A stretch of DNA of 64,000 bases from a virus, in IMG/VR virus record IMGVR_UViG_3300042090_000199, positions 13,745 through 77,744 of that record; one strand, given 5' to 3'. Numbering within the stretch: the stretch's first letter is position 1; each line of letters opens with the position of its first letter. The notes beneath the pieces were generated by a model that was not told the DNA's origin, searched no databases, and was given only the letters and a program-made list of their open reading frames with translations. Made by a program: the position numbers and the translations under genes. Below are positions 2,038-38,315 of this stretch, piece after piece.

Positions 2038-2067
2038 TTGCAAGCCTCTTGAGGCTGCAGCTATAAT
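2038..2067 (+). promoter_or_regulatory. Sigma70-type promoter
   Basis: AGCCTC-TTGCAA-N18-TATAAT in an AT-rich gap; same pattern recurs at 6773, 11902, 23075, 52559, 56175. Confidence 0.7.
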
Positions 2068-2117
2068 ATTAACATACGCAGAAATGTGAAGCAGACTAGG
2101 GACAACAGGAGCTGATC

Positions 2118-2729
2118 ATGGCAAGCAGGCGTAGAGCCGCTCAACAGCCTGTGTCGGCGGACGAGCAAGAAGGGACAAACGAGATGACCGAAACTGACTT
2201 CGACGAAACCGTCGCTGTCGACGAAAAGCCTGAGCCGACCTACGACGAGCTGAAGGCTCGCGTCGTCGAGCTCGAGGAGCAGCTGGCCGCGGCAACCAAG
2301 TCGAAGACCAAGAAGGACAAGCCGGAGAAGCGCAAGCCTGATCTTCCCGACGGCTATATCTCCCCTGTAGCCTTCCGTCACAAGCTGGTGGAGCTCGGCC
2401 TGGCCAACGAGAGCATGAGCCCTGTGCAGGTTTACGGGCTGGTACGCAAGGCCTCGTCCAACGGCATGCCTGTCAAGCACTTCGACAAGGCCGGCAACGT
2501 GTACGACGAGATCCAGACGCACCCCGTCACCAACGAGACGCTCACGCGGCCCGGCCTCATCGAGGAAGACGCTCTCAAGTGGTGGAAGGACCGTCCGAAG
2601 CGTCAGCCTGGCCAGCCCAAGCCGAAGACCGAAGGTGAGTCTGCGGACGCCTCCGAGGACTCGGATCTCGAGGACGCCGCCGCGGCCGAAGACCTTGCGG
2701 CGGACGAGGATTTTGACGAGGCCGAGTAG
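2118..2729 (+). CDS. Putative DNA-binding protein with coiled coil and acidic tail
   Basis: ISPVAF...SPVQVYGLVRK...ALKWW resembles the HTH-like ORF at 58603; strongly GC3-biased codons suggest high expression. Confidence 0.6.
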   Translation: MASRRRAAQQPVSADEQEGTNEMTETDFDETVAVDEKPEPTYDELKARVVELEEQLAAATKSKTKKDKPEKRKPDLPDGYISPVAFRHKLVELGLANESMSPVQVYGLVRKASSNGMPVKHFDKAGNVYDEIQTHPVTNETLTRPGLIEEDALKWWKDRPKRQPGQPKPKTEGESADASEDSDLEDAAAAEDLAADEDFDEAE

Positions 2730-2730
2730 C

Positions 2731-2984
2731 AAACGTCCTGTCTGAGTGTTCCTAGGAATGGCGAGGCTCCGCTCAGACAGGATCCAAACGTCCTGTTCGG
2801 ACCTGGGGTTTACAGCGGGCACCGAACAGGACCCAGACACCCTGATCTAGAGTCCCTAATAGGGTTCGTCCCAGTGGTAGGTATCTAGGTCAGGGCCCGA
2901 ACGTCCTGCTCGGGAAGTGGCAACGATCCGTCTAGGAGCTCCTAGGCGACGACCACACGCCCGAGCAGGACTCAAACGTCCAGC
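2731..2984 (+). repeat. Tandem array of hairpins with conserved RRAC-RYCCTG...CAGGRY-YC base and variable loops
   Basis: Units 2731-2785, 2786-2834, 2835-2898, 2899-2973; a fifth opens at 2974; each complete unit has a covarying 11-14 bp stem. Confidence 0.85.
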
Positions 2985-3700
2985 TAGGCGCGTCTAGGAC
3001 ACCAAGGTTTCGATAGCTCGACCATGGTGTGGAAAGAAGCGGAAGCAGGACGAAAAGGCGAAGGGGACAACGCAGGTGAAGCGCAGACCAGCAGGCGCAC
3101 CAGTCACACGTCCTGCCGAGTTGAACCACACCTCTGGTGTCCCCTTCGTCGCGTCGGGACGACACATGTGGGTGTCAGCACCGAGTACGCGCTCGGAACG
3201 TGTTGCACTGGTTCGAATCCAGGTCCCGGCTCGAGGCTCCGTCGTTCTCCCGTTCGACGGAGCCTGCCTAGGTCGACCATCCGCAAAGGGAGTACACACA
3301 CGAGGATGCTTCGGTCAGACTCCACCTAGGCATTACGCCGGCCCGGCGGCGTGCGTCTTGCTTCACCCTCCAGTGGCAGACGCGAAGGGTTCACCCCACT
3401 CACCGGGACCCACAATCGTAGCTGGCAGGAACACTCAACCTCGAGGACTCTTGAGTAAGGTCCGAAGCCGAGAGCACGTTTGCCTTATTGGCCCGTGCGC
3501 TAATATCGAGCCAGCCACTCAATCACCGGGCTGTCAGATGCGTAGTCTGAACAGCTGGCGGCCCGGCCATAACCCTGGGAGCACCTCCTATGGGCGGTCG
3601 ATCGCGACAAGGCAAGCCGGGCCTGCTCTGCTGATCCTGCCCATGCGTGGCGGTGCAGCGGGAGGTGCTCCCAGGCCGACTGAAGGCTGCTGGATGTGTA
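2976..3700 (+). ncRNA. Putative large structured ncRNA of unknown class
   Basis: No credible ORF; many stems, e.g. 3057-3069/3138-3150, 3045-3052/3109-3116, 3574-3589/3660-3675; T-loop GGTTCGAATCC; possible closing helix 2976-2984/3689-3697. Confidence 0.7.
3153..3230 (+). ncRNA. tRNA-like module (not a canonical tRNA)
   Basis: 8-bp acceptor-like stem, D-like arm with GG, extended anticodon-like arm, CTGG-TTCGAAT-CCAG T arm; no CCA. Confidence 0.6.
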
Positions 3701-3755
3701 GGCTTAATCTACAGCATAGAGTACCTGACCAGTGTGACGTAAGAGAGGAGCGGTA

Positions 3756-4139
3756 ATGCCTACAGCTGTTGACGCTCGTCTGTACGAGCAGTGCTGCAAG
3801 GTCTACGACGCCATGAACGAAGCCGCACAGACCCGTAACGCCGACGGAGTCGCTGTCTATCGAGGTTACACGACCTACCTTCTTGAGCAGTGCGGCTACT
3901 CGATCAGCATTTACACTCCGGTCATGCGTAGACTTCGATCCATGGGTTGCGTTCAGCAAAAGGTCCGCGGAGGCCGTGGTATTCCTAGCGAGTGGCTAGT
4001 CATTAAGCCTCCGACGCGTGCGGCCTTTGCTCAGGGTGGGCAGCGATGGATGGCACAACAGGAGCGCATTTCGGATTTGGAAGCTCGTGTCGAGATTCTC
4101 GAGGCACGCCTGGAAGAAGTCCCAGAAGAAGCCGTATAA
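3756..4139 (+). CDS. Winged-helix-like DNA-binding protein with C-terminal coiled coil
   Basis: YTPVMRRLRSMGCVQQKVRGGRG..SEW wHTH-like pattern; RBS GAGGAG. Confidence 0.55.
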   Translation: MPTAVDARLYEQCCKVYDAMNEAAQTRNADGVAVYRGYTTYLLEQCGYSISIYTPVMRRLRSMGCVQQKVRGGRGIPSEWLVIKPPTRAAFAQGGQRWMAQQERISDLEARVEILEARLEEVPEEAV

Positions 4140-4288
4140 ATAATTCAGTAATAGCCAGTTCCTTTTTTCACTATAGGCCAGTAATCCAAATACTAAATAC
4201 GAAATAGTCGGGAGGTGTTAGCAATGCGTAACTGGCTACACGATCTGGTCGAGGCTCTTTGCGACCATCCGGAATTGGACGATGACCT

Positions 4289-4534
4289 GTGAAGTGGCAA
4301 ACAATTCACCCTGCTACATGCGCACACTGCGGGACTCCTGTAACAGATGTGAGACACGTATGCGAACAGGCAATCAAGGACTGGCTAGCTCTGAATGCTG
4401 AGACATCTGTCCTACCTAAGCCTGGAAGATTCGTGTACGAAATCTTCCGAGAGCTTCAGGCCAAACCTTATCGTACGCTAGACCCTGATCCGTCTATACG
4501 TCCACCGATGGAAGACGTGATCAGCGACCTATAG
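4289..4534 (+). CDS. Hypothetical protein (CxxC)
   Basis: ORF with CAHC motif in the operon. Confidence 0.45.
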   Translation: MKWQTIHPATCAHCGTPVTDVRHVCEQAIKDWLALNAETSVLPKPGRFVYEIFRELQAKPYRTLDPDPSIRPPMEDVISDL

Positions 4535-4545
4535 GAGACAATAGT

Positions 4546-4668
4546 ATGCCCTGGTACTTCTGGGTCTTCGTAGGTCTCTGCGGAGCCTGTGTTCTAGTTC
4601 TCCTGGTGTTCGTCGTCTTCCTAGGTTACATGCTAAAGCATTCCGGCGAAGGAAGAGGTAGTCGATAG
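4546..4668 (+). CDS. Small membrane protein (not in ORF track)
   Basis: MPWYFWVFVGLCGACVLVLLVFVVFLGYMLK...; RBS AGGAG. Confidence 0.55.
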   Translation: MPWYFWVFVGLCGACVLVLLVFVVFLGYMLKHSGEGRGSR

Positions 4669-4671
4669 CAT

Positions 4672-4830
4672 ATGAACTGTCGAACTTGTGGGGCGGAACT
4701 AATTCCAGGCACAGTCTCCGAAGGCGGTAACTGGACTAAAGATCGTCAGCAGAGCCAAGCCTACGAGTGCACGCCCTGTAACGCTCCTCAGAATTGTAAC
4801 TGTGTAAGTCTGTACGGAGTATTGTTGTGA
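4672..4830 (+). CDS. Small Zn-ribbon-like protein (not in ORF track)
   Basis: MNCRTCG...ECTPC; its stop overlaps the helicase GTG (GTGA). Confidence 0.5.
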   Translation: MNCRTCGAELIPGTVSEGGNWTKDRQQSQAYECTPCNAPQNCNCVSLYGVLL

Positions 4831-6317
4831 CTACGACACTATACCAGCAACTATACAGGTTCCAACAAGAGCTCGTCGACAAGTTGGGAAGTCCTGATAT
4901 TCCAGCCCGTCTCATTGGGGACGAAATGGGAACCGGCAAGACATATGAGGCTATAGCCATCGAAGACCGTCTACGACGCACACACACAGGCACCAAGATG
5001 CGCACCCTCATTGTTGCGCCTTGGAGCGTTCATGAAACCTGGAAACGTAAGCTCATAGAGCTACTTGGTCTAAAGCCTGCTGATGTTGTTGTTATTGACC
5101 GTAAGAAGAGGACTACCTTTCTACGAGCTGTCCAGCTCGGCCAGGCCAAGTATTATATTGTGCACTACGAAGCTCTGCGCATTGCAGACATGCAGCCGTT
5201 GCAGCGCATCCATTGGTTCCATATCATTGCAGACGAGATTCATCGAATCAAGTCTCCTAAAGCATTGCAGACGAAAGCTTTTAAGCGTCTCAAGGCTCAG
5301 TTTAAGACAGGCATGTCTGGTTCGATTGCAGACGATCGCCCTCAGGACTTCTGGAGCCCTCTACACTGGGCTCGTCCTGATCTGTTTCCGAACGTCTCGA
5401 CGAAGGACCCTACCAAACTATTCGTCAAGGACTGGTGCGAGACTGAAGAGTTCGAAGGCCGTTTTCTCGGTATCGACGACGATGGTAACGAACTCCATCA
5501 GATGCATAAGCGTGTCACAGGTATGCGTCAGGATCGTCTCGACGAGTTTCACGCGCTTATCGCGCCGTTCTATATGCGTCGGCTGAAAGAAGACGTTCTC
5601 GATCTGCCTGAGAAGGTTTTCAGTCCCGTTCACGTTACCTTGTACGCCGGACAGCAAAAGGTGTACGACCAGCTGAAGCGTGAGTTCATAGCTTGGATCG
5701 GCGAACACGAAGACGAAGAGCTACGAATCAACCGTATGTTCGTCTTCGCACAGCTCGTGCGTCTGCAGCAAGCTGCCCTAGCGTCCTTGATGTTCAGGGA
5801 TACTGGCAAGGCTGACCGCTTCGGCAAGCCGATCAAGAAGGTTGCACTACGTGAACCTTCAGCCAAACTAGATGCCTTTGTAGACTGGGCTTCTGACGTT
5901 AACAGTCCTGTCGTCGTGTTCAGTCAAAGCAGAGGCATGATAGACCTGACTGCAGCAAGACTTGATGCAGCCGGAGCTCGCGTAGGCGTTTACACAGGCG
6001 GAACTCCTGATAAAGTTCGTCAGCAAATCATAGACAACTTCAGCGCAGGCAAGCTAGACTTCTTTCTTGGCACGATCAAGGCTGGAGGAGAAGGCGTTGA
6101 CGGTCTGCAACGAGCGTCTAGCACAATGGTGTTTTTTGATAGGGCCTGGGGACCGTTCAGGAATAAGCAAGCTGAAGATCGTCTGCATCGTGAAGGTCAG
6201 AAGAGTTCGGTCCAAATCGTTGACTTCTACGCTCCGAAAACTGTAGATGCAAAGGTTCGAGCGACAAATATCCGTAAGTGGCGAGACCTTCGCCAGATCC
6301 TAGGAGATGAGAGATAG
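4827..6317 (+). CDS. SNF2-like SF2 DNA helicase
   Basis: GDEMGTGKT, DEIH, MSGS, RRLKEDVL, GGEGVDGLQ, QAEDRLHREGQ. Confidence 0.92.
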   Translation: MTTTLYQQLYRFQQELVDKLGSPDIPARLIGDEMGTGKTYEAIAIEDRLRRTHTGTKMRTLIVAPWSVHETWKRKLIELLGLKPADVVVIDRKKRTTFLRAVQLGQAKYYIVHYEALRIADMQPLQRIHWFHIIADEIHRIKSPKALQTKAFKRLKAQFKTGMSGSIADDRPQDFWSPLHWARPDLFPNVSTKDPTKLFVKDWCETEEFEGRFLGIDDDGNELHQMHKRVTGMRQDRLDEFHALIAPFYMRRLKEDVLDLPEKVFSPVHVTLYAGQQKVYDQLKREFIAWIGEHEDEELRINRMFVFAQLVRLQQAALASLMFRDTGKADRFGKPIKKVALREPSAKLDAFVDWASDVNSPVVVFSQSRGMIDLTAARLDAAGARVGVYTGGTPDKVRQQIIDNFSAGKLDFFLGTIKAGGEGVDGLQRASSTMVFFDRAWGPFRNKQAEDRLHREGQKSSVQIVDFYAPKTVDAKVRATNIRKWRDLRQILGDER

Positions 6318-6738
6318 CATGGAAGACCTACAGGACCGTATCTACACCGTCGTCGAGGAAGCCCTTCCTCTGAGTAGTACAGGTCTCAATGTCCTGGGGT
6401 TCGACGTAGTCTTCGGCAACTGGGACGTCAACGGGAATCCTACTGCAGCCTACGCCATAATCATCGTCGCTAGGCCTACGCTACCTGGAGGCGCGGCGCT
6501 CCTGGATAACAGTCCTGCAGACGTACACGTTCAGATCATCGGTCAGGTGACTCTTGAAGGACCTGCAGGAGACTTCTATCCCTCCGACAAGACTATTCGG
6601 GCACACGTCAAGACAGCCTGCGACGCGATGCGTCTGAAGGCGACGCAGAAGCAGGCACCTTCTAACGGTGGTGCAGTACCACCTAACCCGTTCACGGAGG
6701 CTCTCAAGCGTCATCAACAGCAGCGTGAGCAAGGATAG
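6307..6738 (+). CDS. Hypothetical protein
   Basis: ORF coupled to the helicase stop. Confidence 0.6.
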   Translation: MRDSMEDLQDRIYTVVEEALPLSSTGLNVLGFDVVFGNWDVNGNPTAAYAIIIVARPTLPGGAALLDNSPADVHVQIIGQVTLEGPAGDFYPSDKTIRAHVKTACDAMRLKATQKQAPSNGGAVPPNPFTEALKRHQQQREQG

Positions 6739-6772
6739 TAACGATACCTCAAAAAGATCTTGCTGGAGCCTC

Positions 6773-6802
6773 TAGCATTTCTGTTAGGTCTCGTGATATA
6801 AT
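6773..6802 (+). promoter_or_regulatory. Sigma70-type promoter (extended -10)
   Basis: AGCCTC-TAGCAT-N18-TATAAT with TG at the extended position. Confidence 0.65.
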
Positions 6803-6838
6803 TAAGTAAGGAAAGAATAGTGGTGTTCGGGAGCGGCT

Positions 6839-7036
6839 GTGAGTCGTAAGTATAACTGTAAACATCCGAACCGTGGCATTTCGAAGTACATCGATCGTCT
6901 TAGACGTAGAGGCCTTAGTAAGGCGCCCAGGATGGAACCTCTAGCAGACCTGAAGAAGCGTCAGAAGATCGAACCTATTCCCGAGTCTGAGATAGTCCGA
7001 GCAGGCTGGGGTCTCGGAGGCGAAGATGTCGGCTGA
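6839..7036 (+). CDS. Hypothetical basic protein
   Basis: First ORF after the promoter. Confidence 0.5.
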   Translation: MSRKYNCKHPNRGISKYIDRLRRRGLSKAPRMEPLADLKKRQKIEPIPESEIVRAGWGLGGEDVG

Positions 7037-7322
7037 AGAAGACTTTCAGGCGTTCTGGGAAAAGAAGACAGGAACCTCCAATAGACATCCTAGAGAAGTC
7101 CTCATACGAGGTTACCAGTTTTACGATCTTCTTCTAGAGGCCTTCACAGCAGGGCGTGAAAGTGTCGAACCGGTTATCAATCCTGAATGGTGCAAGGAGA
7201 TAGTTACCTTGCACAGGTCCAACTCGAACTTCTGGACCATACCAGAACTAGCCAAGCTATTCCAACTTCCAGAAGACCAAGTCAGGGAGATCCTGAATGC
7301 CAAGCAAGACGCTACTGGTTAA
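7026..7322 (+). CDS. HTH domain protein
   Basis: WTIPELAKLFQLPEDQVREIL. Confidence 0.6.
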   Translation: MSAEEDFQAFWEKKTGTSNRHPREVLIRGYQFYDLLLEAFTAGRESVEPVINPEWCKEIVTLHRSNSNFWTIPELAKLFQLPEDQVREILNAKQDATG

Positions 7323-8085
7323 CGAAATCTTCGGTCCAACGATACAGGGTGAAGGTCCTGCAATGGGCCGACGCTGTGCTTTCGTTCGGCTAGCAATCTG
7401 CCCGTTGCGCTGCAAGTGGTGCGACACTCCTTACACGTGGGCCTTCTCGAACCCTATTGCCGCGCACCATCAGAGTCACAAGGTGTACGACTATACCGAG
7501 GAAGTTCGCGAGATGACCGTAGGCGACGTTGTCAGCCAGGCTATCTTCTGTGCATCAGGTGCTAACCTCGTAGTCCTATCAGGTGGTGAACCGCTAGCTC
7601 AGGTCCCTGTCCCGCTACAGGATCCTGGAATCAAGCTGGAAGAGTCTTACGGCGACCCTGTAGGGCTCCTGGTAAATACGCTGCTAGAGGCAGGTATCGA
7701 GACGCATATCGAGACTGCAGGCGTTCGTAGACCTAGCCCGTTCTTGCACGAAGCTGTAGGTGGATATGTCGTTTCGCCTAAGCTGGTCACTAGTGGTAAC
7801 AGTCTCAAGGTAAGACGAGACCTAGACGTCCTGAGGTTCTTCGCGGACACGAATAAGGCGTTCTTCAAGTTCGTGATTACGGAACCGAACGACTTCTCCG
7901 AGATCAGCCAGATAGCAGCCCTATGTAGTATCCCGCCGTGGCGCATATGGGTAATGCCGGAAGGCACGACGCCCAAAGCTATCCAGGAAAAGATGACGTT
8001 CGTAGCAGACCGTGGAATTCGAGCAGGCTACAACGTCTCGTCACGTCTACACATCCTGGCTTGGGGCGACCAGAGAGCACACTGA
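7297..8085 (+). CDS. queE: 7-carboxy-7-deazaguanine synthase (radical SAM)
   Basis: EIFGPTIQGEG, CPLRCKWCDTPY, SGGEPL, SPKL, RLH..WG. Confidence 0.93.
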   Translation: MPSKTLLVNEIFGPTIQGEGPAMGRRCAFVRLAICPLRCKWCDTPYTWAFSNPIAAHHQSHKVYDYTEEVREMTVGDVVSQAIFCASGANLVVLSGGEPLAQVPVPLQDPGIKLEESYGDPVGLLVNTLLEAGIETHIETAGVRRPSPFLHEAVGGYVVSPKLVTSGNSLKVRRDLDVLRFFADTNKAFFKFVITEPNDFSEISQIAALCSIPPWRIWVMPEGTTPKAIQEKMTFVADRGIRAGYNVSSRLHILAWGDQRAH

Positions 8086-8393
8086 TGTCTTACTCTTCCA
8101 AAGAACTATGCACTCGTGCGCGCATTACGAAACGCCAGATGGATAACTGGTATCGAATGGGATGGCTAGAACCATTCGAACGTCGAGAGCAAGCAGGATC
8201 TGGAACGCCTCTGGAGTGGCCAACTCGGACCTTCGAGAAGGCTAAGCTAATGTCACGTCTTATTCGTGCAGGGTTCAAGGTTCAGGAAGCTAACGAAATA
8301 GCTGACAGACTTATGAATGACACTACCGCGCGTGCGGATTCAATGCACGATATCGACCTAGGCGATAATATACGACTCAGGCTGTTCGTATAG
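8085..8393 (+). CDS. MerR-like HTH protein
   Basis: YSSKELC..ARITKRQMDNWYRMGWLEP; LIRAGF; TGATG coupling. Confidence 0.75.
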   Translation: MSYSSKELCTRARITKRQMDNWYRMGWLEPFERREQAGSGTPLEWPTRTFEKAKLMSRLIRAGFKVQEANEIADRLMNDTTARADSMHDIDLGDNIRLRLFV

Positions 8394-8406
8394 GAGAGAA
8401 GTAATC

Positions 8407-8610
8407 ATGATGTGTCACCCTTGCAGGCAGGCTGGCGAAGTACTCAAGCTGACTCCGAGCGAAGAGCATCCTGATCCAGAGTCAGAGGCTATAGAACTAC
8501 ACCGGATGTGCCAAGAATCGAACTGTACTTGTCAGCACCGCACCGACAAGGACATTATCAATCGAGAAAGGATACCTAGCAGTGACTCACAGCTACCAGG
8601 GACCGCCTGA
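8407..8610 (+). CDS. Small Cys/His-rich protein
   Basis: CHPC...H..C...CTCQH. Confidence 0.55.
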   Translation: MMCHPCRQAGEVLKLTPSEEHPDPESEAIELHRMCQESNCTCQHRTDKDIINRERIPSSDSQLPGTA

Positions 8611-9127
8611 AGGGTTCCAGTTCAACAATGTCCCTTACCCACCACTGGCTGGAACCTGGGGAGTAGCGCACGGTACCGGACCTTTCGCTAGCGTCATCCG
8701 TACGGCCACGCAGAGCTGGGCAGGTCATGCTGTCTTGTACGTAGGAGACGGACTAGCAGTCGAGGCTCGCTGGCCAAAGGTCAAGATGGACGCAGCTCCT
8801 CGCGAAGACGTCGTCTGGGCTAACGGGCAGCCTCTGACGAGTGAACAACGAATGAGAGCTGTCACAGCTGCTCACCTTCTCATAGGCGCGGGCTACGACA
8901 TCGCTATCTACCCAGCTCTTGTCGCAGCTCTGTTCAAGGCCTCAATCACCAAGGACATCGAACCGTTGTTCAACAGCGACAGATGGTGGGACTGCAGTGG
9001 CCTCGTCGAACACTGCGATGTCGTAGCCGGAGCAGCGATGTTCTCTGGTACAGTCGGTAGCGAGCACTTCGTTACGCCTGCCATGATGATGAACCTCGGC
9101 GTCCAGAAGGGGTGGTTCACAAAGTGA
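8582..9127 (+). CDS. Permuted papain-like (YiiX/NlpC-P60-type) amidase
   Basis: IR..T.S...HA.LYVG near the N-terminus, G..YD, CS.LV, final TP motif (His before Cys). Confidence 0.75.
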   Translation: MTHSYQGPPEGFQFNNVPYPPLAGTWGVAHGTGPFASVIRTATQSWAGHAVLYVGDGLAVEARWPKVKMDAAPREDVVWANGQPLTSEQRMRAVTAAHLLIGAGYDIAIYPALVAALFKASITKDIEPLFNSDRWWDCSGLVEHCDVVAGAAMFSGTVGSEHFVTPAMMMNLGVQKGWFTK

Positions 9128-9333
9128 ACTTGCCACAGTACCGTAGAGCGCTACGTCAGGCTCACGAGGAGTTCGCAGAACAGGTAGCGGCTATACGCGA
9201 CAAGTTCGTCGAAGACATGCGTGAGGCAGGCGATCGACTAGAGAAGGCTCTAATGTCTGCTCACTCGCAGTTCATGGAAGACCCTGAAGAGACAGCCGAA
9301 CATGCTCCAAAGCGCCTTAGGGAGCCCCACTGA
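9124..9333 (+). CDS. Hypothetical coiled-coil protein
   Basis: GTGA overlap with previous gene. Confidence 0.5.
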   Translation: MNLPQYRRALRQAHEEFAEQVAAIRDKFVEDMREAGDRLEKALMSAHSQFMEDPEETAEHAPKRLREPH

Positions 9334-9347
9334 TATACGAAGAAGGC

Positions 9348-9776
9348 TTGACACCAAGTCAGATCTTCGATCGTACCATGAGGGACTTTGTCGAAGCAAT
9401 GACTAGAGAGCCTACGGAAATGCCAGAACGACACTACCATGTAGACGAGCTGCTTGAACAAGACGAAGTATGGCAATCTGGTGATCGAGAGATCCTTCGT
9501 ATCGTCGACATGAAAGACGATCATCTAGTCAACCTGAAAGCGTTTCTGCTCAAGCATGCCTTCAGGTATCAATCAGCCGTTCTTCAGTCTATGTTCACCT
9601 TTGCCTCTACGCTCGGAGGCGAGATGGCGCAGGATGCTATGGAGTCAGAGATCAGTCACGTAGCTGACAAACATGCGCTTCTCTGGATGGAAGAACGTCC
9701 TCTATACAAAGCAGTGCAAAACGAAATCTTCAGACGGCAGGGATATAGCGTCTGCCGCATCATAGAACAGGAGTAG
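9348..9776 (+). CDS. Hypothetical protein
   Basis: W....I.DM..DHL.N motif seen in phage hypotheticals. Confidence 0.55.
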   Translation: MTPSQIFDRTMRDFVEAMTREPTEMPERHYHVDELLEQDEVWQSGDREILRIVDMKDDHLVNLKAFLLKHAFRYQSAVLQSMFTFASTLGGEMAQDAMESEISHVADKHALLWMEERPLYKAVQNEIFRRQGYSVCRIIEQE

Positions 9777-9778
9777 CA

Positions 9779-10570
9779 ATGCTATACCGAACTAGGACAG
9801 TTCTCGTCGAGACGGAACCAGGCACTGGAGAAGAGGAAGGCTTCACCAAGATCTCGATCGGAGAATGCTGGGCATTTATCCCGAACGCCTTGTTCGAAGT
9901 TCTGTTCGAGGAGCTAGGTCCAGGACTCCAAGCAGACATAGGCAGTTCTGAAGGCATCGTAGACGCAGCAGGCTTCGACCTCAGCTGGTGCAAGAGCGCC
10001 GAGCCCCGCAATCTGATCAACGAGATGCTGGCAATGGAAGCCATCACGACCGACAACACCATCGACGGCCCGTCGTGGATGTTCAAGCCCTACCCGATCA
10101 GCATCTTCGGCAAGCTTCTTACCGCTGTTATCGAAGACATGGGCTGGATATGGAATCCTGGAGTAGACGAGTCAGCCCCTAAGTTCCTCGAAGTCGGCTG
10201 TGGACCAGGTACGAAGCTAGTCGTAGCCGAGAAGGTATTCGGTCTCGATGCAGGAGGTTTCGACTACAACCCCGACTATGTGCGAGACGCGAACGAGCTA
10301 CTGCAGTCTAAAGGCTGTCAGGGTGGTGCGTTCATAGCGGACGCTCGCACAGTAACCACCCCCTATAGTCTCGCCGACGTGATATGGCTCAATCGTCCGT
10401 TCGTTCATCTCGAGATGACAAGACGTCTGGAAGAGACAGTTCTCAACCGTATGCACCCAGGCGCATACATCATTCTCGGTAACTACGCTACCGATCCGAA
10501 AGAGCTCGGGTGGCAAGTCATCGCCGAAGACAAGATGGCGATCGTGCTCAGGAAGCCTGTACTCAAATAA
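9779..10570 (+). CDS. Class I SAM-dependent methyltransferase
   Basis: FLEVGCGPG, GFD, ADA, DVIWLNRPF. Confidence 0.8.
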   Translation: MLYRTRTVLVETEPGTGEEEGFTKISIGECWAFIPNALFEVLFEELGPGLQADIGSSEGIVDAAGFDLSWCKSAEPRNLINEMLAMEAITTDNTIDGPSWMFKPYPISIFGKLLTAVIEDMGWIWNPGVDESAPKFLEVGCGPGTKLVVAEKVFGLDAGGFDYNPDYVRDANELLQSKGCQGGAFIADARTVTTPYSLADVIWLNRPFVHLEMTRRLEETVLNRMHPGAYIILGNYATDPKELGWQVIAEDKMAIVLRKPVLK

Positions 10571-10590
10571 CCGATCAGGAGAAATAGAAC

Positions 10591-10908
10591 ATGAAACTCA
10601 ACAAGCGCGACCTGACCTGGGCTGGCGTCGCCAGTACTGGCATCGCAGCGGCAGCAATCATCGCCGGCTGCGCCAGCGGAAACCCTGTCGCCGATGACCT
10701 GCAGAACGTATCACCGTCATATCCGAACTACGTTGGGCTCTACCTCAACGTCGACGGCCATCCGAACATCGTCGAGATCTGTATCAACGGTGTAGGCTTC
10801 GCCACGACGACGCGCGAAGCCGCAGGCGCGATCACGCGCATCCCTGAATGGGATGCCTTCTGTCAGACGCAAGAAGGTAAGCAGGCTACCCAGAACGGTC
10901 AGCCTTAA
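10591..10908 (+). CDS. Lipoprotein
   Basis: Signal peptide with lipobox IAGC; RBS AGGAG. Confidence 0.7.
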   Translation: MKLNKRDLTWAGVASTGIAAAAIIAGCASGNPVADDLQNVSPSYPNYVGLYLNVDGHPNIVEICINGVGFATTTREAAGAITRIPEWDAFCQTQEGKQATQNGQP

Positions 10909-10909
10909 C

Positions 10910-11155
10910 ATGGCTGTTCATCATAACAGGCTAGTTCCGTCTTCTCCAGAGCCTCCAGCTCCGATCCGAGGTGGCACGTTCTTCTACTGCCCTTGGGGTG
11001 AGAGGAGAAAAAGCGACTGGGGCTCAATTTCGTTTCTAGCCTGCGGCATCGTCCACGCTGGATGGGCAACCGGCACGAGATTCCGAACATGCAAGGCTTA
11101 CCGGCAGCACTGGCGAAGGTATCACTCGGAGGTGCAGCATGACGATGTCCGTTAA
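10910..11155 (+). CDS. Hypothetical protein
   Basis: ORF from ATG 10910; Cys/His residues. Confidence 0.45.
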   Translation: MAVHHNRLVPSSPEPPAPIRGGTFFYCPWGERRKSDWGSISFLACGIVHAGWATGTRFRTCKAYRQHWRRYHSEVQHDDVR

Positions 11156-11369
11156 GACAATGGAGTTCGACACAATCATCGTCATCTACGACTACACGAG
11201 CCAGACCTTGACTATCAAGTCAAAGTCTGCTCCAGAGACTAAACCAGCTACTAGGCACAATCTTCAACCCGAAGGCGAGATCAAGCTGCCTAGCTTCAGT
11301 ATTCAGGAGCTGCGAGAAGGTCTCGAAGGCATCGGTCAGCAAGTCCCATCAGGTCGACGTTTATCTTAA
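11139..11369 (+). CDS. Hypothetical protein ending ...CGT TTA TCT TAA
   Basis: RBS GGAGG; contains one of three in-frame TTA codons found. Confidence 0.55.
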   Translation: MTMSVKTMEFDTIIVIYDYTSQTLTIKSKSAPETKPATRHNLQPEGEIKLPSFSIQELREGLEGIGQQVPSGRRLS

Positions 11370-11378
11370 TCAGCAACG

Positions 11379-11406
11379 AGGCCCGCCGGAACACGCCGGC
11401 GGGCCT
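11379..11406 (+). terminator. Intergenic GC-rich hairpin
   Basis: AGGCCCGCCGG-N6-CCGGCGGGCCT. Confidence 0.55.
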
Positions 11407-11421
11407 GATAAGGAGAGTATC

Positions 11422-11736
11422 ATGGAAATGAGCCGTTGGACGCTAGTTGTAGAGTTCGACTCTATCCAGGAAATGATAGCCGAAGATGACTACGAAGGAG
11501 GCCTAGCTGAAGCGGAAGAGTTCTACCAGTACATACGTGAGTACTGGAACGGCATGGATGAAGATTGGCTCAACGAAGACACGAACCTGACAGGTGACAC
11601 AGTAACAGTCACCTTCCCAGTTCTGGATGATATCGAAGAGCCGCTTCGATGGCTCACTATGAAGTCTGTACCCAAGAAGATCACCTTGTCTCGTAACGAT
11701 ACTCGAACAGGAGGACCTGCTAGGCATGAAGACTAG
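11422..11736 (+). CDS. Hypothetical acidic protein
   Basis: RBS AAGGAG; ORF. Confidence 0.55.
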   Translation: MEMSRWTLVVEFDSIQEMIAEDDYEGGLAEAEEFYQYIREYWNGMDEDWLNEDTNLTGDTVTVTFPVLDDIEEPLRWLTMKSVPKKITLSRNDTRTGGPARHED

Positions 11737-11901
11737 GGACCGGGAGCTTCTCGTCTACTTGATATGTATACTAGTCCTGACAGGACTAGTTGTCTTTGCT
11801 ATAGTGCATGCTGTTGCAACCAACTGCGAGTACAACGCTTGTGGTCATTAGTTGACTAGTGTATTAAGGGAAATTTCAGAATAATTTCCTTTAAGGCTCC
11901 A

Positions 11902-11931
11902 TTGTTGTTCCCTCGATTCTTGTAGTATAAT
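11902..11931 (+). promoter_or_regulatory. Sigma70-type promoter upstream of queC
   Basis: TTGTTG-N18-TATAAT in an AT-rich gap. Confidence 0.6.
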
Positions 11932-11969
11932 TATATTATACGAAAAGCGAGAATCCAGGAGCAAACATT

Positions 11970-12677
11970 ATGGGCGGTATAGCAATCGTGTCCGGCGGGC
12001 TTGACAGCACCACGATGCTGTACGATCTTGTGAATAGCGGAACAGACGTAGACGTAGTGTCCTTCAACTACGGGCAGCGTCACATCAGGGAACTGATTCA
12101 GGCAAGAGCTATCACTTCAGCTCTTCGTCTCCATCACCTGATCATAGACATTCCGTCCTATGGACGCTCGATCGTGTCCAGCGCGAGCTCTCTGGTAGAC
12201 CCTAACGCTGAGGTCCCGGAAGGCAGCTACGACGCCGAAAGCATGAAAGCGACTGTTGTCCCGAACCGTAATATGGTCATGATAGCTATGGCGTCGGGAG
12301 TAGCAATCTCTACCAAGGCCCAGTTTGTCGCTACGGCAGTCCATGCAGGTGACCACGCGATCTACCCCGACTGTAGGCCTGAGTTTATCAGGAGCCTAGA
12401 GACGGCTATCAAGATCGGTAACGAAGGGTTCATTGACCCTGGGTTCGAAATCAGGACCCCTTACATCTACAGGACTAAGGCCGATATCGCCAGGCGAGCA
12501 GGCGAACTTCGTGTTCCTGTCGATCTCACGTGGTCGTGCTATAAGGGCGGAACTTCCCACTGCGGACGATGCGGGACCTGCGTAGAACGTCTCGAAGCCT
12601 TTCACGAGGCAGACGTGTTCGACCCTACGGTGTACATGGACACCGAATTCTGGAAGACAGCGGTCGCGGCTAAGTAA
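11970..12677 (+). CDS. queC: 7-cyano-7-deazaguanine (preQ0) synthase
   Basis: SGGLDST, FNYGQRH, VPNRN, YPDCRPEF, TWSCY..G..HCGRCGTCVER. Confidence 0.96.
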   Translation: MGGIAIVSGGLDSTTMLYDLVNSGTDVDVVSFNYGQRHIRELIQARAITSALRLHHLIIDIPSYGRSIVSSASSLVDPNAEVPEGSYDAESMKATVVPNRNMVMIAMASGVAISTKAQFVATAVHAGDHAIYPDCRPEFIRSLETAIKIGNEGFIDPGFEIRTPYIYRTKADIARRAGELRVPVDLTWSCYKGGTSHCGRCGTCVERLEAFHEADVFDPTVYMDTEFWKTAVAAK

Positions 12678-22789: not shown

Positions 22790-23074
22790 TATCCATCCCG
22801 ATTTGGCTCCTAGTAGTTCTTATCGTCGGGATAATCTTGGGAGCAGGAGCGGTCATATGGTTCCTTAACTGGATATCGCACTTCATGGACGGCTTTTGAC
22901 ATGAAGAGTCAAGCCCTAGACTCTTGCTTCGACATGATCTGCAAACACATGGTCTGCGCCATCTCATCTCCTGAGGACTCCTATGCTTGGAAGTGGAGAT
23001 GGCAACTAGTAGAGACCTGGCTCGCAGCAGCAGCGAATATCATAGAAGCCGAATAAAAACCTTGCTGTAGCCTC

Positions 23075-23104
23075 TTGCTTTAGACTATCATATTGATATA
23101 TAAT
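23075..23104 (+). promoter_or_regulatory. Sigma70-type promoter
   Basis: AGCCTC-TTGCTT-N18-TATAAT; upstream AAAAACCTTGCTG resembles the 6751 region. Confidence 0.7.
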
Positions 23105-23124
23105 TAAAAGAACGGAGGTGCTGA

Positions 23125-23715
23125 ATGTCAGCTTACGACTACAAGTACACGGACAGAGACGTTCGTGAGAACATTAATCTCATGAAGGCTGCTCAAGACT
23201 ATCTGTTGCAGTACGGAGGAGACTTCGACTACCTAGTCAGAGCTCGACAGTACTTGGTTATTCAAGGCAGTCTACCAACAAGTATAGCGCGTGGAGTTCT
23301 CAACTGCATGCGCAGCGACCCTTACTGGGTAGGTCGAATACCTGCTCCTAGGCTCGAAAACTACTTTATGTCACCACCGGAGTCTCCCAGGAGGCTATAC
23401 GCTGTCGACCTTCAACGTCCTCGGCGCATCAGGCTCAACGCTACGTTCAACAAGCCATACGTTATGTCTCCTTGGAAGACTGCATATCTAGTTCATCTGC
23501 TAGACCAGCGAGACTCACAGCTCTGGTATCATCCGCACACAGGCACCTACGAATGTCTACTACAAGGCTGGTGCAACATCAGCTACGGCCAACGTCGAAA
23601 CCTAATCATGACCGACACTATCCCAGAAGGCAGGAGAGAATGCGACCGTTGTCGGCGCGCTTTGGAGGCGTCCCAACATGATCCATCGTATAGTAGGCGT
23701 CCCCGATGGCCTTAA
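23125..23715 (+). CDS. Hypothetical protein
   Basis: RBS GGAGG; C-terminal CxxC. Confidence 0.6.
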   Translation: MSAYDYKYTDRDVRENINLMKAAQDYLLQYGGDFDYLVRARQYLVIQGSLPTSIARGVLNCMRSDPYWVGRIPAPRLENYFMSPPESPRRLYAVDLQRPRRIRLNATFNKPYVMSPWKTAYLVHLLDQRDSQLWYHPHTGTYECLLQGWCNISYGQRRNLIMTDTIPEGRRECDRCRRALEASQHDPSYSRRPRWP

Positions 23716-37735: not shown

Positions 37736-38169
37736 AAGCCACCCCTCTTTCTCCGCTGTTGCGAAGCACGGAGCTGGATCCACTGATCGAGAGTAGTCGG
37801 ACGACCAAAGTGTTGAATACCAGGAGCTACCAACGGAGTAGTGCCCTCAGGGTCCTCTGGCGTCCTATACTTGTACAACGCAGGTCTCAAGAACGGCTCT
37901 TCAGGAACTATTTCAGGACCGACAGTATGAGTAAAGCGATGGAAGACACGGTGACCGAATTCTACATCCAACGTGTAAGCAGCCGTAGAGTAGATAATCA
38001 GTGTCAGGTTGTCTACGTAGTACTCAATTCCCGCTGCGAGTGCCCCCGTACGCTTAGGTGCATATCGTATCGCGTCTGCTGTGATCAAAGGCCCAAGAGT
38101 CACGTCGAGAAATTCTTCGACGTCAGCCTCTATATGCCCGATCGCATCGGGATCGATATAAACACGCAC
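37609..38169 (-). CDS. HK97 gp10-like neck protein
   Basis: AP.RTGAL...I, VEFG, PFLRPAL; may effectively end at TTA 37737. Confidence 0.75.
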   Translation of the reverse strand: MRVYIDPDAIGHIEADVEEFLDVTLGPLITADAIRYAPKRTGALAAGIEYYVDNLTLIIYSTAAYTLDVEFGHRVFHRFTHTVGPEIVPEEPFLRPALYKYRTPEDPEGTTPLVAPGIQHFGRPTTLDQWIQLRASQQRRKRGGLWLFTPIANWLLWPGSAVFRVSLVSSILVWCLLSLLLNSSGL

Positions 38170-38248
38170 TCGCCACGTCCCTCTACGTCAGTGGCACGAC
38201 AAAGTTCCTAGGCGTCTACCGCCCTGCAGATTTCGTCGCTCTATTCTA

Positions 38249-38278
38249 ATAATAACACACAACACACTAGGAAAGCTA
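38249..38278 (-). promoter_or_regulatory. Internal promoter for the tail genes
   Basis: Minus strand TAGCTT-N18-TATTAT with TG extension, in an AT-rich gap. Confidence 0.5.
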
Positions 38279-38315
38279 GGGTAAGTCACTAAAATACTTA
38301 ACGATACTAGTAAAA

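What the first reader, a model, noticed from the sequence alone, without database searches (positions are those of the whole stretch)
2976..3700. ~720-nt densely structured non-coding RNA with a long pseudoknot, possibly the cargo of the fifth array unit
Seen: the longest non-coding gap in an otherwise packed genome. Stems 3026-3032/3126-3132 and 3045-3052/3109-3116 are crossed by a 13-bp helix 3057-3069/3138-3150, giving a pseudoknot or a switch. Other stems include AGGCTCCGTCG/CGACGGAGCCT, GCCTAGGT/ACCTAGGC, GCTGGC/GCCAGC, CCGGGCTG/CGGCCCGG and a 16-bp 3574-3589/3660-3675. The fifth unit opening ACGTCCAGC (2976) can pair with GCTGGATGT (3689). Known: phages carry large ncRNAs such as GOLLD and ROOL. 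I cannot match this one to any class.
Basis: partly seen in the sequence, partly recalled or inferred. Interest (0 to 1): 0.82.

Follow-up and report, generated by a model that had tools for sequence, protein, structure and literature searches.

The report
Large structured phage RNA with tRNA-like module
A soil or wetland phage carries a conserved, transcribed RNA element of about 720 nt that matches no known family, has a tRNA look-alike inside it, and keeps a long reading frame open that does not evolve like a protein gene.

Summary
The stretch 2730-3755 is the longest gene-free gap of the window. Region 2976-3700 folds far better than shuffles (z -5.1; coding control -2.0). The fold is conserved in three related metagenomic phage loci: 35 of 178 predicted pairs change on both sides and stay paired, against 5-9 in slid controls. 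G.U pairs outnumber A.C 61:11, so the + strand is the folding strand.

Rfam and ARAGORN find no known class. A tRNA-like module (3153-3230) sits in the middle. In two relatives it is replaced by a differently built one. Four wetland metatranscriptomes hold the region, while 4000-12000 is almost uncovered.

A long-range helix (3043-3052/3354-3363) and a pseudoknot candidate at 3433-3472 fit the data better.

ORF 3076-3756 stays open in every relative, and all length differences preserve the frame. Yet it has no third-position bias, dN/dS is 0.5-0.7, replacements are radical, and AlphaFold pLDDT is 35.

Best reading: a new class of large phage RNA, closest in kind to GOLLD with an embedded tRNA. 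A ribosome probably also reads through it into the next gene. Its function is unknown.

The parts
2038..2067 (+). Sigma-70-like promoter match (TTGCAA-18-TATAAT, 10/12) upstream of gene 2118-2729. It is the only promoter-like site found upstream of the element on the + strand.
   Evidence: consensus match only
2731..2975 (+). Four abutting hairpins with a conserved base (AAACGUCCUG ... CAGGAC) and variable tops. Their number and content differ between relatives: 2 in rel216, 3 in L005, 1 in L007.
   Evidence: the motif AACGTCC[TA]G occurs only on the + strand
2976..2984 (+). 5' strand of the closing stem; pairs with 3689-3697.
   Evidence: 9/9 in window, rel216 and L005; L007 closes with a different pair of strands
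2991..3042 (+). Variable 5' sub-domain (hairpins, helices 2-3 of the consensus).
   Evidence: 5 pairs with changes on both sides
3043..3052 (+). 5' strand of the long-range helix with 3354-3363. This helix encloses domain A, the tRNA-like module and three hairpin domains.
   Evidence: 10/10, 9/10 and 10/10 paired, with A-U to C-G compensation in rel216; an equivalent helix of other sequence appears in the L007 fold
3057..3150 (+). Domain A: long hairpin with a 13-bp base, then AGGUG (3074-3078) paired with CACCU (3129-3133), then a variable tip. Both strands are nearly invariant in all four sequences. The 5' strand holds the SD-like GAAGGGG and the GUG (3076) that opens the conserved frame.
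3153..3230 (+). tRNA-like module, type 1. It has an 8-bp acceptor-like stem (3153-3160/3223-3230), a D-like hairpin (3161-3176), an irregular anticodon-like arm, and a T arm CUGG-UUCGAAU-CCAG (3208-3222). No CCA is encoded.
   Evidence: compensatory changes in the D-like and acceptor stems in rel216; replaced by a type 2 module in L005 and L007
3234..3265 (+). 11-bp hairpin with four different sequences in four loci, all paired.
   Evidence: 6 of 11 pairs changed on both sides
3266..3331 (+). Domain closed by GCCUAGGU/ACCUAGGC, with inner helices.
3335..3352 (+). G+C-rich hairpin. It also scored as terminator-like, with a weak U tail.
3354..3363 (+). 3' strand of the long-range helix.
3418..3518 (+). 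Most conserved domain. It has a junction closed by GCUGGC/GCCAGC (compensated U-A to C-G) and a hairpin GCACG/CGUGC with a variable loop. It also has a pseudoknot candidate: ACUCAA 3433-3438 with UUGAGU 3451-3456, crossing CUCG/GGAC 3440-3448 with GUCC/CGAG 3460-3472.
   Evidence: one compensatory change in L007 on each of the two crossing helices
3526..3570 (+). Optional hairpin, absent as a whole (49 nt) in L007.
3574..3675 (+). 3' domain: a 16-bp helix continued by a second interrupted helix.
   Evidence: 16/16 in four sequences; 5 pairs in this domain changed on both sides
3689..3697 (+). 3' strand of the closing stem.
3076..3756 (+). Frame kept open (226 codons, GUG start). Its stop overlaps the ATG of gene 3756-4139 (TAATG). 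It shows no protein-like evolution.
3756..4139 (+). Conserved 127-aa gene of unknown function, always directly downstream of the element. It has its own SD (GAGAGGAG).

Best explanation
Region 2976-3700 encodes a + strand, multi-domain structured RNA of about 720 nt. It is specific to a small clade of soil/wetland phages and belongs to no described RNA family.

Shown:
- The fold is conserved and covaries, and it is closed by a terminal stem.
- The parts come in this order: a 5' hairpin sub-domain; then a long-range helix that encloses an invariant long hairpin, a tRNA-like module and three hairpins; then a highly conserved junction/pseudoknot domain; then an optional hairpin; then a 16-bp-based 3' domain.
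- The region is present in RNA libraries from the field, where most neighbouring phage DNA is not.

Inferred:
- It is transcribed with gene 2118-2729 from the promoter-like site at 2038-2067, and it accumulates above the level of that mRNA.
- The tRNA-like module has acceptor/T-arm stacks of 12 bp in two unrelated versions. It acts as a generic tRNA-shaped handle. Either host RNase P and RNase Z cut the precursor there into a 5' and a 3' RNA, or it stays as an embedded tRNA mimic, as in some GOLLD RNAs.
- Ribosomes can start at the invariant SD-GUG, but only while the 13+5-bp helix that buries it is unformed. They then read the stop-free frame to the start of gene 3756. Translation and folding would therefore exclude each other. 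This would explain why the frame is kept open although its peptide is not conserved.

The molecular function of the folded RNA is unknown. My best guess is a trans-acting, stable, possibly self-assembling RNA of the GOLLD/ROOL kind made early in infection.
For: Structure:
- z = -5.1 for the window and -6.7 for L007, against -2.0 for a coding control.
- In the four-sequence consensus, 94.7% of cells are paired, against 35-41% when partners are slid.
- 35 pairs changed on both sides, against 5-9 slid and 15.8 +/- 2.4 shuffled, 0/500.
- G.U 61 against A.C 11; alifold energy -198 on + and -180 on -.

Conservation:
- Blocks of 16-27 nt are invariant at all codon positions between loci whose flanking proteins are only 56-65% identical.

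Not a known class:
- Rfam gave 0 hits at gathering score. At E <= 10, only a 17-21-bit tRNA-Sec match fell on the tRNA-like module in two loci.
- ARAGORN found nothing in the window, the whole 77.7-kb record or the relatives.

tRNA-like module:
- The fold has a T loop UUCGAAU or UUCGAGA, compensated T, D-like and acceptor stems, and a whole-module swap in L005 between otherwise identical flanks.

Expression:
- Contigs from four metatranscriptomes cover 2090-3905.
- The 2653/2760/2853 to 3116/3126/3136 pieces have word depth 14-27, against 2-6 for the upstream gene.
- Nothing is covered in 4000-12000 apart from one 178-nt piece.

Open frame:
- 252 open codons, p = 0.0025 by shuffling.
- The frame is open in rel216 and L005, and every length difference is a multiple of 3.
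- The chance of staying stop-free under random substitution is 2% and 9%.
- The stop overlaps the next start, or lies 18 nt before it in L007.

Not protein-like:
- Substitutions by codon position are 30/43/42, 33/30/30 and 62/69/70. The flanking genes give 8/3/30 and 18/13/40.
- dN/dS is 0.53-0.70, against 0.08-0.23 in the flanks.
- Mean BLOSUM62 of replacements is -0.8 to -1.3, against +1.1 to -0.4.
- Codon score is 0.01, against 0.33 +/- 0.10; GC2 is 0.62.
- AlphaFold mean pLDDT is 34.9, with no secondary structure. There is no Pfam or PHROG match.
Against: - Only four DNA sequences could be fetched, and three are close. The consensus structure was derived from the same sequences on which it was scored.
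- The RNA evidence comes from assembled contigs. There is no strand, no transcript ends and no true depth profile. Coverage is uneven: 3412-3700 assembled in one run only.
- The hole over 3137-3242 in three runs could be an assembly artefact, because no listed contig is shorter than 151 nt.
- No processing site, RNase P/Z cleavage, translation or function has been shown.
- The conserved open frame is not required by a purely non-coding model. The coupling idea is an inference.
- The 13+5-bp helix should strongly inhibit initiation at the GUG.
Confidence: 0.6

Rival explanations
1. It is a giant cis-acting leader. The structure exists to control translation of the downstream 127-aa gene (and perhaps later genes) through the read-through frame. 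It has no trans-acting role.
For: The element always lies directly upstream of the same gene. The frame ends on or just before that gene's start in both lineages. The SD-GUG block and its pairing partner are invariant. Two further database peptides, P0010 and P0011, share only the last ~25 residues of the frame, which lie at the junction with the next gene.
Against: About 720 nt, more than 20 helices, a tRNA-like module and an optional hairpin are far more than known leaders need. The downstream gene has a good SD of its own. The pieces with the highest word depth in the RNA libraries lie in the 5' part, not next to the gene.
Confidence: 0.2
2. ORF 3076-3756 is a real gene for a basic, disordered, Arg/Pro/Gly-rich protein, and the RNA structure is secondary (mRNA stability).
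For: The frame is open in all relatives with frame-preserving indels. Gene callers predicted it in about 10 independent contigs, always in the same frame. No gene was called in the other long + frame. The layout is operon-like, with the stop overlapping the next start.
Against: There is no third-position bias, and dN/dS is 0.5-0.7 with lowered dS. Replacements are as radical as random. The codon score is 3 SD below the phage's genes and GC2 is 0.62. pLDDT is 35, and there is no family match. Paired positions change together while the encoded residues change freely. In L007 part of the frame is shifted relative to the others and is still open.
Confidence: 0.1
3. It is a DNA-level element, either a replication origin with iterons and cruciforms or an attP site built on a tRNA gene fragment.
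For: There are direct repeats of AAACGTCCTG with inverted partners. The tRNA-like segment resembles what attP sites carry. The locus lies upstream of an SNF2 helicase and other DNA-metabolism genes.
Against: The strong G.U over A.C asymmetry (61:11) shows selection on one strand as RNA. The repeat motif occurs on the + strand only. The region is found in RNA libraries. No tyrosine or large serine recombinase was found in the 77.7-kb record. The tRNA-like module has both acceptor strands, not just a 3' tRNA fragment.
Confidence: 0.05
4. It is a diverged member of a known RNA class (GOLLD, ROOL, tmRNA, RNase P RNA, or a group I/II intron) that the models miss.
For: Its size, phage origin and embedded tRNA-like module recall GOLLD. 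Type 2 modules carry G3.U70 and A73, as tmRNA and tRNA-Ala do.
Against: No such family appears even at E <= 10 with permissive filters, in four loci. ARAGORN finds no tmRNA. The tRNA-like module is contiguous, not formed by the RNA's two ends as in tmRNA.
Confidence: 0.05

Closest known systems
GOLLD RNA (Rfam family; large ornate RNA of phages and prophages)
   Same: Both are phage-encoded, several hundred nt long, and built of many helices. GOLLD has a less conserved 5' part and a better conserved 3' part. In some GOLLD members a tRNA is embedded between the two (bioRxiv 10.1101/2024.12.08.627333; PMC12990946, which cites a Mycolicibacterium GOLLD with tRNA-Phe in J13/15). Here the 3' domains 3418-3675 are likewise the best conserved, and a tRNA-shaped module sits in the middle.
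   Different: There is no Rfam match even at E <= 10. No tRNA genes lie nearby or anywhere in the record. The embedded module is not a decodable tRNA. A conserved open frame runs through the element. It sits inside an early operon between two protein genes. Multimer or cage formation is untested.
ROOL RNA
   Same: It is a large, pseudoknotted, abundant phage or prophage RNA of unknown function, often found near tRNAs.
   Different: There is no model match, and the habitat and hosts are different.
tmRNA
   Same: Both combine a tRNA-like part with an open frame in one structured, pseudoknot-bearing RNA. Type 2 modules in L005 and L007 have G3.U70 and A73, which are the alanine identity elements.
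   Different: ARAGORN and Rfam find no tmRNA. The tRNA-like part here is contiguous and internal. The frame runs across it and is 170-260 codons long. The window's own type 1 module lacks G3.U70.
tRNA-like processing handles (rRNA-operon spacer tRNAs; MALAT1 mascRNA-type elements)
   Same: In both, a tRNA-shaped module lies inside a longer precursor, where RNase P and RNase Z could cut. The module can be swapped between versions of unrelated sequence, as expected for a generic handle.
   Different: No cleavage has been shown here. The RNA-seq contig breaks around the module are only a weak hint.

Membership tests
GOLLD RNA | Match to the Rfam covariance model (conserved 3' domain) | tested here: not met
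   No hit at gathering score or at E <= 10 in the window region or in three homologous loci
GOLLD RNA | Phage or prophage location, several hundred nt or more (many members over 800), tRNA adjacent or embedded | tested here: inconclusive
   Phage record, about 720 nt, embedded tRNA-like module, but no true tRNA anywhere in the record
GOLLD / ROOL RNA | Homo-oligomeric cage assembly | not testable with these tools
   Needs cryo-EM or native gels
ROOL RNA | Match to the Rfam covariance model | tested here: not met
tmRNA | tRNA-like domain formed by the 5' and 3' ends, tag frame with resume codon, detected by ARAGORN or Rfam | tested here: not met
   ARAGORN 0 genes; no Rfam tmRNA hit; the module is contiguous at 3153-3230
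tmRNA | G3.U70 alanine identity pair | tested here: inconclusive
   Present in the type 2 modules of L005 and L007; absent in the window and rel216 (C3-G70)
tRNA gene | Cloverleaf with a 7-nt anticodon loop, recognised by ARAGORN or the Rfam tRNA model | tested here: not met
   ARAGORN finds none. The best Rfam score is 17-21 bits (tRNA-Sec) against a gathering score of 47. The anticodon-like arm is irregular, with a 4-6-nt loop
Protein-coding gene | Open frame conserved in relatives | tested here: met
Protein-coding gene | Excess of third-position or synonymous change, conservative replacements, host-like codon use, foldable or family-matching product | tested here: not met
Group I / group II intron, RNase P RNA, other Rfam ribozymes | Match to covariance models | tested here: not met
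Phage attP at a tRNA gene | Integrase in the genome, usually adjacent; only the 3' part of a tRNA present | tested here: not met
   No PF00589 or PF07508 match in the 77.7-kb record, which is 83% complete; both acceptor strands are present

The most novel reading that the evidence does not exclude
This is a new kind of ribosome-engaging ornate RNA. It is a large folded phage RNA with an exchangeable tRNA mimic, and its sequence is also kept readable by the ribosome in one frame across the whole family, with no selection on the peptide. Folding and translation would then be alternative states of one molecule. In that case it is either a translation-gated RNA switch or, given the Ala-type mimics in some members, a tmRNA-like device. 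The element may also be the largest 'cargo' of a cassette-like array of stem-closed RNA modules, which vary in number and content between related phages.
Probability: 0.2. Interest if true: 0.88.

Novelty: new variant of a known kind. Interest (0 to 1): 0.72.

Why it matters
Large ornate RNAs of phages (GOLLD, ROOL) are few, abundant, structurally striking, and still without a known function. A further, unrelated class would give an independent system for asking what such RNAs do.

This one has several useful properties. It has an embedded and exchangeable tRNA mimic. It shows a transcription signal in field samples. It sits at a defined place in an early operon.

The conserved stop-free frame without protein-like evolution is unusual. 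If ribosomes really traverse the element, it would link RNA folding and translation in a way not described for this kind of RNA. It also shows how gene callers turn structured RNAs into 'hypothetical proteins': about 10 such entries exist in public databases.

Tried and rejected
- Rfam at gathering score and at E <= 10 on four loci gave nothing consistent.
- ARAGORN on the window, the whole record and the relatives found nothing.
- blastn of the region against 50,697 phage records found no match.
- Exact and degenerate DNA motif scans, and flank-protein scans, of IMG/VR found only one relative. The 16-mer scan also gave 7 chance loci, which nhmmer rejected.
- Scans of genome contigs found nothing, so no prophage copy or host was identified.
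- The metagenome scan gave three loci, one of them the same phage as rel216.
The DNA behind six further homologous 'proteins' (P0005, P0007-P0009, P0012, plus junction fragments P0010 and P0011) could therefore not be fetched.
- A search with the other long + frame (3024-3329) found no called protein.
- Pfam, PHROGs and PDB profile searches of the flanking proteins gave no function.
- RNA contigs leave 3137-3242 uncovered in three runs and 3242-3271 in the fourth. This is tempting as evidence that the tRNA-like module is excised. However, the contig ends differ by 20 nt, no listed contig is shorter than 151 nt, and strain variants of the module could break the assembly graph. I count it only as a hint.
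- The gap 8086-8581, which holds one RNA contig, is not unusually folded (z +0.5).
- A 10-nt complementarity between 3327-3336 and the start region of gene 3756 is within chance expectation by my rough estimate.
Full report
Setting. The window is bases 13745-77744 of a 77.7-kb IMG/VR virus record. The record encodes an SNF2-type helicase and a QueE-like radical SAM enzyme. It has no tRNA genes and no integrase. The finding lies between gene 2118-2729 (203 aa) and gene 3756-4139 (127 aa). Both are conserved, and neither has a recognisable family. By a rough codon-score gene call, 2730-3755 is the longest uncovered stretch of the window: 1026 nt against 621 nt for the next.

Is the structure real? 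Region 2976-3700 folds at -333.7 kcal/mol, with z = -5.1 against dinucleotide shuffles. A coding stretch of the same length gives z = -2.0.

Related loci were found through the flanking proteins and through database 'proteins' translated from the region:
- rel216, a 79-kb IMG/VR contig (L003/L006).
- L005, a 3.4-kb metagenome contig.
- L007, the more distant locus on a 22-kb contig, whose flanking proteins are 56-65% identical.

RNAalifold on the four sequences gives 178 pairs in 24 helices. Of the cells, 94.7% are paired, against 35-41% when the 3' partners are slid by 1-3 columns. Thirty-five pairs changed on both sides and stayed paired. The slid controls give 5-9, and the shuffles give 15.8 +/- 2.4 (0 of 500 reach the observed value). 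The structure was derived from these same sequences, which inflates the paired fraction, but not the count of double changes to that extent.

L007 folded on its own gives the same order of domains. Its terminal stem and long-range helix have different sequences, and z = -6.7. G.U pairs outnumber A.C 61 to 11, and the + strand consensus is 18 kcal/mol better than the - strand. The + strand RNA is therefore the selected molecule.

Anatomy (window coordinates):
- Closing stem 2976-2984/3689-3697.
- A variable 5' hairpin sub-domain.
- A long-range helix 3043-3052/3354-3363, with an A-U to C-G compensation in rel216. It encloses four units.
  - (i) A long hairpin with a 13-bp base (3057-3069/3138-3150) continued by AGGUG/CACCU. 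Both strands are nearly invariant in all four loci.
  - (ii) A tRNA-like module, 3153-3230.
  - (iii) An 11-bp hairpin whose sequence differs in all four loci but always pairs.
  - (iv) The domain closed by GCCUAGGU/ACCUAGGC, plus a G+C hairpin.
- A poorly conserved linker.
- The best conserved domain, 3418-3518. Two mutually crossing helices there each show one compensatory change in L007: ACUCAA/UUGAGU, and CUCG-GGAC/GUCC-CGAG. This is a pseudoknot candidate.
- A hairpin (3526-3570) that is missing entirely in L007.
- A 3' domain built on the 16-bp helix 3574-3589/3660-3675.

That pseudoknot is therefore unsupported. The strand GCAGGACG can pair either with 3109-3116 or with 3354-3361. In rel216 both partners carry the base that restores the pair, so an alternation cannot be excluded.

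The tRNA-like module. In the window and rel216 it has an 8-bp acceptor-like stem stacked on a 4-bp T stem with loop UUCGAAU. It also has a D-like hairpin (GACAC/GUGUC, which becomes GACGU/ACGUC in rel216) and an irregular third arm. No CCA is encoded. Rfam gives only 17-21 bits to tRNA-Sec, and ARAGORN finds nothing.

L005 and L007 carry a different module in the same place. It has a 7-9-bp acceptor-like stem with G3.U70 and A73, one long hairpin, and a 5-bp T stem (CCGAG or CCGGG) with loop UUCGAGA. L005 has no difference from the window in the 75 nt before the module and 34 differences within it. The module was therefore exchanged as a unit. That fits a generic tRNA-shaped handle better than a sequence-specific role.

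Known classes. No Rfam family reaches its threshold, or even E <= 10, in any consistent way. There is no tmRNA. No similar DNA occurs in 50,697 phage records.

The nearest described kind is GOLLD, followed by ROOL. These are large, ornate phage RNAs of unknown function. GOLLD has a variable 5' part and a conserved 3' part. Some members have a tRNA embedded between them (10.1101/2024.12.08.627333; PMC12990946). The present element resembles that layout but fails the model test, so I do not file it as a member.

Expression. Of 18 public runs that share words with the region, four are wetland metatranscriptomes from four studies. All 23 of their contigs that lay on the first 12 kb of the window are at least 99% identical to it. 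They cover 1-1079, 2090-3241 and 3272-3905, and one 178-nt piece at 8224-8401. Nothing else in 4000-12000 is covered. That pattern is not what contaminating DNA would give.

In three runs the contig spanning the last hairpins plus the 5' part of the element has word depth 14.5-27.5. This contig starts at 2653, 2760 or 2853 and ends at 3116, 3126 or 3136. The contigs of the upstream gene have depth 2-6, and the piece from 3243-3252 to 3394-3411 has depth 6-16. Contig depth is a coarse measure, and neither strand nor transcript ends can be read from contigs. I take this as evidence of transcription and as a hint of accumulation of the 5' part. The hole over the tRNA-like module is recorded only as a hint.

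The only promoter-like site upstream is at 2038-2067. The element is probably made as part of the transcript of gene 2118-2729.

The open frame. Frame +1 of the region has no stop for 252 codons, while the other five frames have 6-12 stops. Only 0.25% of dinucleotide shuffles reach that length in any frame. rel216 was found independently of the frame, and its frame is also open: 239 codons, with the same stop overlapping the next ATG. Its four regions of length difference are +3, -3, -3 and -9. The module swap in L005 changes the length by 12.

Random substitutions of the observed number and kind would leave the frame open in 2% (rel216) and 9% (L005) of trials. In L007 the frame starts at the same GUG. 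It is shifted for a stretch by the 49-nt deletion and returns to register. It then stops 18 nt before the next gene's ATG.

A profile of the translations finds nine cluster representatives among 1.84 billion. All are singletons or near-singletons from metagenomes. Several of them (P0005, P0008, P0009, P0012) keep the same frame from the first to the last conserved block. This set is biased, because only open frames get called. Even so, no gene was ever called in the other long + frame.

Nothing else about the frame looks coding:
- Substitutions are flat over codon positions (30/43/42, 33/30/30, 62/69/70). The flanks show the usual third-position excess.
- dN/dS is 0.53-0.70 with lowered dS, against 0.08-0.23.
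- Replaced residues score -0.8 to -1.3 in BLOSUM62 even between close relatives, against +1.1 to -0.4 in the flanks.
- The codon score is 0.01, against 0.33 +/- 0.10. GC2 is 0.62, and the composition is rich in Pro, Arg, Gly, Cys and His.
- AlphaFold gives pLDDT 34.9 and no secondary structure.

The frame is thus selected to stay open, but its product is not selected.

The simplest reading is that ribosomes do traverse it. The invariant block holds GAAGGGG nine bases before the GUG, and both lie in the 5' strand of the 13+5-bp helix. Initiation would be possible only before or without that helix. A ribosome that starts would unfold the element and arrive at the start of gene 3756. This reading is an inference. 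It explains the position of the stop in both lineages and the invariance of the block. It does not explain why so elaborate an RNA is needed.

Relation to the hairpin array. The four hairpins at 2731-2975 share the base AAACGUCCUG...CAGGAC. The motif occurs only on the + strand, and it also follows the stop of gene 48-1085. Relatives have 1-3 such hairpins, with different tops. The element's closing stem carries the same motif in the three close relatives but not in L007. 'Cargo of a fifth unit' is therefore a fair description for this sub-lineage and not a family-wide feature.

Verdict. This is a real, conserved, transcribed, structured RNA of a class not in Rfam. It is closest in kind to GOLLD with an embedded tRNA. 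It has two unusual traits: an exchangeable tRNA mimic, and a family-wide open frame without protein-like evolution. Its function is unknown, and the mechanism proposed here is an inference.

Noticed in passing
L005:1279-1342 (T-arm-like part at 1312-1328): The first post-stop hairpin of relative L005 carries a T-arm-like mini-hairpin in its top (GUCGG-UUCAAGU-CCGAC). At least one small array unit therefore also holds a tRNA-shaped piece.
   Followed up: partly
window 1093, 2732, 2787, 2900, 2975: The motif AACGTCC[TA]G occurs five times on the + strand and never on the - strand of the whole 77.7-kb record. Each copy opens a hairpin that follows a stop codon or a previous hairpin. RNA contigs of gene 48-1085 end at 1030-1079, just before the hairpin at 1083.
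   Followed up: partly
window 3327-3336 and 3753-3762: A 10-nt perfect complementarity joins the element to the start-codon region of gene 3756. It is kept in rel216 (with one G.U) and in L005, and is absent in L007. It is about what chance allows by my rough estimate (about 0.5 such pairs expected in 1 kb).
   Followed up: partly
window 8086-8581: This is a 496-nt stretch without a confident gene. One metatranscriptome contig lies at 8224-8401. The stretch is not unusually folded (z +0.5), so it probably holds small genes rather than a structured RNA.
   Followed up: partly
window 23057-23677 and 37784-38315: These are the next largest stretches without a confident gene call (621 and 532 nt). 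They were not examined.
   Followed up: no
L005 versus window and rel216: L005 is a mosaic. It is identical to the window over 3076-3150. In the variable loop of hairpin 3474-3498 and at several 3' positions it matches rel216. Its tRNA-like module is the L007 type. Recombination therefore shuffles modules of the element.
   Followed up: partly
window 2118-2729: The upstream 203-aa protein ends in a conserved acidic tail (…DEDFDEAE), which is reminiscent of the C-terminal tails of phage single-strand DNA-binding proteins. No family match was found.
   Followed up: no
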